64,000 bases of DNA from Eledone cirrhosa. Taxonomy: Eukaryota. A model generated the notes under the pieces. The model was not told where the DNA came from, searched no databases, and saw only the letters and a program-made list of their open reading frames with translations. Position numbers and translations under genes: made by a program. Of this stretch, positions 39,396-41,170 are shown in pieces. The stretch covers positions 260,772,001 through 260,836,000 of the forward strand of contig OZ024742.1 of NCBI GenBank assembly GCA_964016885.1. Direction: 5' to 3'. Numbering within the stretch: position 1 is the first letter of the stretch; each line of letters starts with the position of its first letter.

Positions 39396-40736
39396 TCTCG
39401 ATAAAAGCAAGGGAAGTAATCTACGCGTTTCATTCTCGTTAGAAATCATCAGGACTACATATCCAGTGCTTTTATCGAGAATGACACAGCTAGAGACTTA
39501 TAGAATACTTAGCTGTGTACAGGAACTGGTTTGAAAGAGCGGTTGCCGGTCCGGCAGAAATTAGAAATTGGAATAAATGCTCTGAAATAGCGATATATAT
39601 GTGAATATAGACATAGAATATTCGAAAATATTCTGTATGTTTATAATAAACATTTTGAAGACCTAATCGCTATAGAATAGAATACGTCACTTATTACAAT
39701 TAGATTCTCGATAAAAGCAAGGGAAGTAATCTACGCGTTTCATTCTCGTTAGAAATCATCAGGACTACATATCCAGTGCTTTTATCGAGAATGACACAGC
39801 TAGAGACTTATAGAATACTTAGCTGTGTACAGGAACTGGTTTGAAAGAGCGGTTGCCGGTCCGGCAGAAATTAGAAATTGGAATAAATGCTCTGAAATAG
39901 CGATATATATGTGAATATAGACATAGAATATTCGAAAATATCTGTATGTTTATAATAAACATTTGAAGACCTAATCGCTATAGAATAGAATACGTCACGT
40001 ATTACAATTAGATTCTCGATAAAAGCAAGGGAAGTAATCTACGCGTTTCATTCTCGTTAGAAATCATCAGGACTACATATCCAGTGCTTTTATCGAGAAT
40101 GACACAGCTAGAGACTTATAGAATACTTAGCTGTGTACAGGAACTGGTTTGAAAGAGCGGTTGCCGGTCCGGCAGAATTAGAAATTGGAATAAATGCTCT
40201 GAAATAGCGATATATATGTGAATATAGACATAGAATATTCGAAAATATTCTGTATGTTTATAATAAACATTTTGAAGACCTAATCGCTATAGAATAGAAT
40301 ACGTCACGTATTACAATTAGATTCTCGATAAAAGCAGGGAAGTAATCTACGCGTTTCATTCTCGTTAGAAATCATCAGGACTACATATCCAGTGCTTTTA
40401 TCGAGAATGACACAGCTAGAGACTTATAGAATACTTAGCTGTGTACAGGAACTGGTTTGAAAGAGCGGTTGCCGGTCCGGCAGAAATTAGAAATTGGAAT
40501 AATGCTCTGAAATAGCGATATATATGTGAATATAGACATAGAATATTCGAAAATATTCTGTATGTTTATAATAAACATTTTGAAGACCTAATCGCTATAG
40601 AATAGAATACGTCACGTATTACAATTAGATTCTCGATAAAAGCAAGGGAAGTAATCTACGCGTTTCATTCTCGTTAGAAATCATCAGGACTACATATCCA
40701 GTGCTTTTATCGAGAATGACACAGCTAGAGACTTAT
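39396..40736 (-). mobile_element. Retrozyme-like ~310-bp tandem array (~4.3 units), hammerhead on the minus strand
   Basis: Units start at ~39396, 39706, 40014, 40323 and 40631. Hammerheads at 39416-39458, 39726-39768, 40034-40076, 40342-40384 and 40651-40693. Confidence 0.9.
39416..39458 (-). ncRNA. Type I hammerhead ribozyme (first of five identical minus-strand copies)
   Basis: GTAGTC-CTGATGA-T TTCT AACG AGAA T-GAAA-CGCG-TA-GATTAC, with GUA cleavage triplet. Stem I is extended by a 15-bp helix TTCTCGATAAAAGCA/TGCTTTTATCGAGAA past an internal loop. Confidence 0.92.
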
Positions 40737-41170
40737 CTTCCCTTGCTTTTATCGAGAATCTAATTGTAATACGTGACGTATTCTATTCTATAGCGATTAG
40801 GTCTTCAAAATGTTTATTATAAACATACAGAATATTTTCGAATATTCTATGTCTATATTCACATATATATCGCTATTTCAGAGCATTTATTCCAATTTCT
40901 AATTTCTGCCGGACGGCAACCGCTCTTTCAACCAGTTCCTGTACACAGCTAAGTATTCTATAAGTCTCTAGCTGTGTCATTCTCGATAAAAGCACTGGAT
41001 ATGTAGTCCTGATGATTTTCTAACGAGAATGATACGCGTAGATTACTTCCCTTGCTTTTATCGAGAATCTAATTGTAATACGTGACGTATTCTATTCTAT
41101 AGCGATTAGGTCTTCAAAATGTTTATTATAAACATACAGAATATTTTCGAATATTCTATGTCTATATTCA
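40737..41170 (+). mobile_element. Inverted arm of the retrozyme-like array (~1.4 units)
   Basis: Reverse complement of the left units. The hammerhead at 41003-41046 has GAAA changed to GATA. Ends in (TA)n. Confidence 0.9.

What the first reader, a model, noticed from the sequence alone, without database searches (positions are those of the whole stretch)
40725..40760. Array inversion point sits 5 nt from the predicted ribozyme cleavage site
Seen: orientation flips at 40736/40737. The right arm starts CTTCCCTTGC, and the predicted 3' cleavage product starts GATTACTTCCC. The junction shows TTA microhomology. Inference: the right arm is a cDNA that ran off the 5' end of a self-cleaved RNA and was joined head-to-head to a second cDNA. 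This would be a genomic footprint of in vivo cleavage.
Basis: partly seen in the sequence, partly recalled or inferred. Interest (0 to 1): 0.75.

Follow-up and report, generated by a model that had tools for sequence, protein, structure and literature searches.

The report
Ribozyme arrays copied from RNA circles
The flip point is real but its closeness to the predicted ribozyme cut is chance; the array belongs to a large family of head-to-head hammerhead repeats whose shared variants, including one likely RNA-edited copy repeated nine times, suggest that each insertion was reverse-transcribed round and round from a single RNA circle.

Summary
The inversion at 40736/40737 is real and the right arm starts 5 nt after the predicted cut of a type I hammerhead, but the join is blunt (no strict TTA overlap). 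The array is a 310-nt non-LTR retrozyme, roughly 2,000 loci by estimate, with Penelope-like hallmarks: head-to-head arms, both outer ends in (TA)n, one ending at unit position 127-139 and the other at 159-172 (109 of 118). All units of both arms share template variants (161 fixed in both arms, 0 in one arm only), and locus L118 carries 14 A>G changes identically in all nine units and nowhere else. Best reading: a self-cleaved, ligated RNA circle is copied by rolling-circle reverse transcription from both target strands by a Penelope-like protein. The footprint of cleavage is in the variants, not the breakpoint. Cleavage, circles and the partner protein are untested.

The parts
37983..39195 (.). 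Left (TA)n-rich tract, inferred target side of the left arm
39196..39395 (.). 200-N assembly gap hiding the 3' (outer) end of the left arm; predicted to be a tail-type end at unit position 159-172
   Evidence: prediction from pairing rule
39396..40736 (-). Left arm: 4.3 units of the 310-nt retrozyme, 5' end at unit position 231; crosses five predicted cut sites (40656/7, 40347/8, 40039/40, 39731/2, 39421/2)
40651..40693 (-). Intact-looking type I hammerhead nearest the junction; predicted cut between 40657 and 40656
   Evidence: read from sequence; pair list
40736..40737 (.). Head-to-head junction, unit positions 231 / 6, blunt (no overlap, no inserted base)
   Evidence: row L001; one search lists it
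40737..41170 (+). Right arm: 1.4 units, 5' end at unit position 6, 3' end at position 130 (short, no-tail type) running into (TA)n
41003..41046 (+). Right-arm hammerhead, predicted cut 41040/41041; core GAAA reads GATA here (A14>T at 41033) plus one extra T in helix II, either read errors or later mutations
41170..49815 (.). Right (TA)n-rich tract, 8.6 kb, inferred target side of the right arm

Best explanation
The array is one copy of a 310-nt hammerhead repeat family that sits head-to-head inside (TA)n tracts, and each copy was likely made when a Penelope-like reverse transcriptase copied one self-cleaved and re-ligated RNA circle round and round from both strands of the target. Shown: the architecture, the two fixed outer ends about 26-35 nt apart on the unit (one per arm), read-through of the cut site, scattered inner ends with short microhomology, and one haplotype per locus in every unit of both arms. 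Inferred steps: (1) arrays are transcribed, the hammerheads cut multimers to monomers (probably as dimers, given the 2-bp palindromic helix III) and a host ligase closes them; (2) some circles are A-to-I edited; (3) a Penelope-like protein, probably a dimer, nicks both strands of a (TA)n tract and primes one cDNA at position 127-139 and the other at 159-172 of the same circle; (4) each cDNA runs a median of 3-4.5 rounds (up to 27) and stops at a position unrelated to the cut; (5) the two cDNA 3' ends are joined by 0-5 nt microhomology or short templated fill-ins, giving the inversion. The junction at q6 in this window is one random stop.
For: 118 of 139 sampled loci are head-to-head; 9 of the first 10 loci found by the ribozyme motif alone are too. 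109 of 118 pair one short with one tail end, the other 9 being complex or cut by gaps or edges; this matches the 30-40 bp tail at only one end and the inverted 5'-truncated copy of Penelope-like elements (PMC8557442, passages) and the two internal start sites and extension of both strands shown in vitro (PMC11167929, parts 1-2 of 4). Both outer ends meet TA tracts, median about 60 nt. In 117 two-armed loci 161 variants are fixed in all units of both arms, 23 of them seen in one locus only, and 0 are fixed in one arm only; both arms agree on the common q295 allele in 106 of 106. Private variants are single (88), under one third (16) or fixed (21), none in between, and no two of 139 loci share two minor variants. 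L118 has 14 A>G changes, no other private change, identical in every unit of both arms, and its 41-nt signature occurs 9 times in the genome, all in that locus. Distinct fixed changes are 24 A>G against 6 T>C on the ribozyme strand (12 against 6 without L118, P=0.055), singletons 8 against 23. 10 of 10 fixed substitutions in the hammerhead keep core and pairing, against 7 of 17 singletons (Fisher P=0.003). The cut site is copied without scars: 4 minor variants in 1,237 crossings, 3.3 expected. RT plus GIY-YIG elements are abundant in the genome and one (L199) shows the same head-to-head, one-tail, TA-flanked layout.
Against: No RNA evidence was obtained: cleavage, circles and editing are inferred from DNA. 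No autonomous partner with a terminal repeat matching the unit was found among 32 GIY-YIG loci examined, of about 10,600 candidates. Some DNA-level exchange does occur after insertion: 39 partial variants, some duplicated as blocks or shared between arms, and L080 has one variant in 7 of 7 units of one arm but 2 of 6 of the other. The editing argument rests mainly on one locus; without it the A>G bias is borderline. Junction ends are non-uniform (chi-square P=9e-5) in a way this model does not explain, and microhomology weighting does not remove it. 99 of the 139 loci were picked through one outer-end pattern only and all were ascertained by an end in TA, so only the opposite end tests the pairing rule. 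The assembly is a single genome, so a parent of L118 could be missing.
Confidence: 0.74

Rival explanations
1. Same Penelope-like two-strand priming, but on long uncleaved multimer transcripts of already homogeneous parent arrays; homogeneity comes from the parent and from later gene conversion, and no circle is needed.
For: Uncleaved RNA was the main substrate of the anole Penelope-like protein in vitro (PMC11167929); local duplication and conversion are visible in 39 partial variants; shared haplotypes (41 among 117 loci) fit parent-daughter copying.
Against: Editing of a multimer would differ unit by unit, yet L118 is identical in nine units and has no parent in this assembly; no intermediate-frequency private variants and no parent mosaic shared between loci; only 1 of 7 variants seen once per arm lies at the matching distance from the start sites.
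Confidence: 0.12
2. One reading: templates are linear, partly self-cleaved RNAs; cDNAs run off the cleaved 5' end and are trimmed by 5-60 nt before joining.
For: Excess of ends at q11-65 (70 vs 42); among arms crossing at least one cut, 60 ends in q1-65 against 39 in q246-310 (P=0.044); one arm starts exactly at q1 (L174).
Against: Depletion within 10 nt of the cut (5 vs 16); equal excess at q96-130; 1,088 cut sites crossed; only 17 of 236 arms are shorter than one pass; 4 genome-wide starts at the cut against 22 at a control.
Confidence: 0.05
3. The template is the cleaved linear monomer held end-to-end by its stem, and the reverse transcriptase jumps from its 5' end back to its 3' end at each round; or the second arm is a fold-back copy of the first cDNA.
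For: Both would give one haplotype per locus; a 16-bp stem plus helix I brings the ends together; arm lengths correlate weakly (rho 0.24).
Against: No scars and no stops at the cut; fold-back does not explain the strict short/tail pairing, either arm can be the longer (67 vs 42) and arm lengths are not matched beyond chance (25 vs 21 within one unit).
Confidence: 0.06
4. The inversion or the homogeneity is an assembly or chimeric-read artefact.
For: This locus borders a gap and carries homopolymer indels; its own junction was not bridged in the pieces shown.
Against: 118 loci with distinct junctions and a strict end rule; 170 singleton variants survive inside arrays; contigs of an independent public run show two other head-to-head joins at depth about 5 (27 letters on the short side) and the same TA-joined ends.
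Confidence: 0.03

Closest known systems
Metazoan non-LTR retrozymes (PMC7229834: passages and Discussion read; bioRxiv 10.64898/2026.07.22.740005: parts 1-3 of 5 and term search)
   Same: Tandem units of 150-450 bp, low GC, one type I hammerhead per unit, no ORF, co-occurrence with Penelope-like elements; circRNA proposed as the template that yields tandem cDNA.
   Different: Those papers show circles in coral, mussel and axolotl but give the circle-to-tandem-cDNA step as a hypothesis; the preprint favours local amplification into tandems. Head-to-head arrays, fixed internal start sites, (TA)n targeting and edited haplotypes were not found in the passages searched. Supplements were not read.
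Penelope-like elements, EN+ clades (PMC8557442 passages; PMC11167929 main text parts 1-2; PMC4209133 passages)
   Same: Inverted 5'-truncated copy at the 5' end, 30-40 bp tail at one end only, two internal start sites, AT-rich or (TA)n targets, type I hammerheads with short palindromic helix III.
   Different: No RT or GIY-YIG ORF; up to 27 identical units per arm; near-absolute one-short, one-tail pairing measured here; no matching terminal repeat of an autonomous element found yet.
L1 twin priming (recalled, not read here)
   Same: Two cDNAs primed from the two target strands and joined head-to-head by microhomology.
   Different: In L1 one primer uses the poly(A) tail and the other a variable internal site of a linear RNA, so arms do not overlap; here both start at fixed internal sites and both copy the same unit many times.
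circRNA-derived pseudogenes (PMC4897178, search listing only)
   Same: A circular RNA leaves a genomic copy through reverse transcription.
   Different: Those come from back-spliced exons and are rare; here the circle would come from ribozyme cleavage and underlie a family of about 2,000 loci.

Membership tests
non-LTR retrozyme | Tandem repeats of 150-450 bp, low GC | tested here: met
   310-nt unit, 106 of 310 G+C; period 308-310 in window
non-LTR retrozyme | Type I hammerhead with conserved core in each unit | tested here: met
   Core and helices read from sequence; 4,190 exact 40-nt matches; 10 of 10 fixed changes fold-compatible. Rfam gave no match at gathering score and the MFE fold recovers helices I and II but not III
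non-LTR retrozyme | No coding capacity, LTR, PBS or PPT; dispersed copies | tested here: inconclusive
   Dispersed on many contigs; no ORF of 200 aa or more in the array; PBS and PPT not searched for
non-LTR retrozyme | Self-cleavage and accumulation as linear and circular RNA | not testable with these tools
   No run on record as RNA was listed; only indirect genomic signs
Penelope-like element insertion | Inverted 5'-truncated copy joined at the 5' end | tested here: met
   118 of 139 loci
Penelope-like element insertion | 30-40 bp tail at only one end | tested here: met
   109 of 118 two-armed loci pair q127-139 with q159-172
Penelope-like element insertion | AT-rich or microsatellite target | tested here: met
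   TA tracts of 12 nt or more on 107 of 109 tail sides and 103 of 109 short sides; one side was selected for this
Penelope-like element (autonomous) | ORF with RT and GIY-YIG domains | tested here: not met
   None in the array; present elsewhere in the genome. It works like one, as a non-autonomous passenger
Penelope-like element (derivative) | Unit homologous to the pseudo-LTR of an autonomous family | tested here: inconclusive
   32 loci examined; only 74-78% matches to other short TA-embedded elements, none tied to an ORF end

The most novel reading that the evidence does not exclude
This genome holds about 2,000 fossil records of rolling-circle reverse transcription of ribozyme-made RNA circles: a dimeric Penelope-like protein primes both target strands at two start sites on one circle, which explains the long-unexplained inverted, one-tail layout of Penelope-like insertions, and A-to-I edits of individual circles are written back into the germline and can found new haplotypes, while selection on the hammerhead acts at each cycle.
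Probability: 0.55. Interest if true: 0.85.

Novelty: new variant of a known kind. Interest (0 to 1): 0.7.

Why it matters
That animal retrozymes move through their RNA circles, and how Penelope-like elements make inverted copies with a tail at one end, are both stated as open in the papers read. This family turns them into counts: one haplotype per locus, strict pairing of the two start sites, and an edited template copied nine times. It also names a 310-nt substrate with known start sites for an in vitro assay, and shows RNA edits entering the genome through a circular RNA. The original claim, a breakpoint at the cut, is false and should be dropped.

Tried and rejected
Breakpoint clustering at the cut: rejected. 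TTA microhomology at this junction: rejected in the strict sense. Rfam scan: 0 matches. Idea that the TA tracts are made de novo, telomerase-like: 8 of 103 loci had a colinear homologue among held loci, most uninformative, and one clear case (L070) already had a TA tract, so not supported. Ligation scars at the cut: none. Core-only test of selection (0 of 50 distinct fixed variants in 12 core positions, 1.9 expected) is too weak alone. Edited sites in L118 are not enriched in predicted stems (57% vs 61% of all A) and 3 of 14 have a 5' G, so context gives no extra support. Microhomology-weighted null does not explain the uneven ends. Partner search among 32 loci failed. Sequencing runs: no RNA holder listed; single 340-nt contigs in three runs fit a tandem repeat as well as a circle and were not used. 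Rows dropped: L077 (tandem duplicate of the L076 junction), the second L042 junction, segments under 90% identity or 35 nt; L001-L041 were used for description only. Not-in-print statements rest on 9 paper searches of an open-access library; supplements were not read and could hold examples. PMC13282606 (passages) does not mention ribozymes. Three look-ups of earlier findings returned nothing.

Full report
Observation. The window lies in a 3.0-Gb animal genome (G000); an octopod is my guess from genome size, zinc-finger arrays and (TA)n load, not a result. A 308-310 nt tandem array runs on the minus strand from an N gap to 40736 and on the plus strand from 40737 to 41170, between long (TA)n tracts. 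Each unit carries a type I hammerhead. Numbering the unit from the predicted cut (q1), the junction joins q231 to q6. So the 5-nt distance is right. The join is blunt: neither arm extends into the other. The locus looks unpolished (8 homopolymer indels, and a broken GAAA in the right-arm ribozyme).

The family. The 40-nt ribozyme motif has 4,190 exact matches. Forward-strand outer ends number 1,023 for the short class and 814 for the tail class, which gives about 2,000 loci and 3,700 arms by my arithmetic. I sampled 140 stretches: 60 taken in order along the first 95 Mb of contig 1, and 80 taken in order from two rarer end classes; one duplicate was dropped, leaving 139. 118 are head-to-head, 17 are single arms, 3 are cut by gaps or the fetch edge, and 1 has an insert between the arms. 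Singleton variants run at 4.4 per 10,000 bases, so the family is very young.

5 of 236 junction ends lie within 10 nt of the cut, 16 expected (P=0.001 for so few). The arms cross 1,088 cut sites; 181 of 236 are longer than two units. Genome-wide patterns requiring two foreign bases before a start gave 4 at q1, 7 at q6 and 22 at q59, a site chosen because it was frequent in the sample; my rough uniform expectation is about 7. The claim fails. Ends are uneven, though: high at q11-65 and q96-130, low at q66-95 and around the cut. I cannot explain this; pausing is a guess, and trimmed run-off keeps a small probability. Family-wide, junctions do use microhomology (mean 2.1 vs 0.75 nt) or short fill-ins.

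What the outer ends say. Outer ends fall at q127-139 or q159-172 and run into TA. 109 of 118 two-armed loci have one of each; the other 9 are complex or truncated, and no simple short-short pair was seen. This is the layout described for Penelope-like elements, an inverted truncated copy and a 30-40 bp tail at one end only (PMC8557442), and it matches the two internal start sites, both-strand extension and predicted dimer of the anole protein (PMC11167929). The genome has about 10,600 GIY-YIG candidates; RT plus GIY-YIG ORFs were confirmed in 3 of 5 proteins scanned, and L199 shows the same layout with a longer tail. The actual partner was not found among 32 loci.

What the variants say. In 117 two-armed loci, 161 variants are present in essentially all units of both arms and none is fixed in one arm only. 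Private variants are either rare or fixed, never in between, and no parent mosaic is shared between loci: a founder signature. L118 carries 14 A>G changes on the ribozyme strand, on top of a known three-variant haplotype, in all nine units of both arms, and nowhere else in the genome. A-to-I editing of one monomer, then repeated copying, is the simplest source; that ADAR edits molecule by molecule is established knowledge, not tested here. The cut site is copied without extra errors over 1,237 crossings, which favours a closed circle over template jumps. Fixed changes inside the hammerhead all spare the core and keep or improve pairs (10 of 10, against 7 of 17 singletons), as expected if only cleavable RNAs become templates; transition bias weakens this (21 of 43 transitions are compatible) and the ten changes are not fully independent. 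Against: 39 partial variants show some later duplication or conversion, and without L118 the A>G bias is borderline.

Mechanism. Transcription, self-cleavage and ligation give a 310-nt circle (inferred; shown for other animal retrozymes in PMC7229834). A Penelope-like protein nicks both strands of (TA)n and starts one cDNA at each of two sites on that circle (inferred). Each rolls for several rounds, tail arms somewhat longer (median 4.5 vs 3.1 units, P=0.001) and lengths weakly coupled (rho 0.24). The two cDNA ends are joined, giving the inversion. Confidence 0.74; uncleaved multimer templates 0.12; jumps or fold-back 0.06; trimmed run-off 0.05; artefact 0.03.

Comparison and verdict. It is a non-LTR retrozyme by the features testable here, with the insertion hallmarks of Penelope-like elements; it is not an autonomous element. 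The circle-template step is proposed but not shown in PMC7229834 (Discussion), and a 2026 preprint leans to local amplification. In nine searches I found no report of head-to-head retrozyme arrays or of edited haplotypes used this way; the library is open-access only and supplements were not read. The finding as written is a coincidence; the family behind it offers direct genomic tests of two open questions. Interest 0.7.

Noticed in passing
L118 (G000:C1:380304200-380313200), positions 990-3380: Array with 14 A>G changes identical in all nine units of both arms, unique in the genome; likely an A-to-I edited circle written into DNA.
   Followed up: yes
unit positions 2-3, e.g. L051, L114, L133, L159: The commonest indel site of the unit is 2 nt after the predicted cut: +C fixed in 7 loci and +T in 2; both also appear at about 1% depth in public contigs. 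Old ligation scar or helix I tuning; unexplained.
   Followed up: partly
L051 and L085; L101 and L173; L017 and L047: The same junction recurs in loci with unrelated flanks and, for the first two pairs, different haplotypes (q167/256, q216/47); q250/13 uses the unit's 16-bp stem as overlap. Suggests preferred joining sites.
   Followed up: partly
window 28557-33546: Perfect 2,118-nt inverted repeat with ORF pieces (31048-32010 plus, 30013-30675 minus; no Pfam hit for the one scanned); the right arm runs about 80 nt further before its TA tract and has a hammerhead-like motif near 33360-33410. Looks like another head-to-head Penelope-like insertion with one tail.
   Followed up: partly
window 20299-24534: Broken Penelope-like element (RT hit at 21977-23323, same motif as L197) with a short direct terminal repeat, between TA tracts 18684-20298 and 24535-25944.
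   Followed up: partly
L039-L041; also fragments in L183, L194, L208; L203 7950-8200: Older related short elements, 74-78% alike over unit positions 54-228 or over the ribozyme, also inverted and TA-flanked; the shared part q59-165 lies just 5' of the start sites and may be the protein-binding signal.
   Followed up: partly
window 50060-53176 (+), 15890-18377 (+), 36190-37980 (-): LINE copies (RTE-like by my reading) with endonuclease, RT and a PHD-finger hit; their (GAT)n tails abut long TA tracts.
   Followed up: no
window 6785-7999: Open frame with about 12 C2H2 zinc fingers.
   Followed up: no
window 60281-60892 (-): RT fragment that looks Ty3/gypsy-like (Pfam RVT_1; clade from recall).
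   Followed up: no
public runs X1-X20: Twenty runs under 18 organism codes hold 68-80% of the unit's words; three laid ones have a single 340-nt contig at depth 10-34. Carry-over, diet or spread between species cannot be told apart.
   Followed up: no
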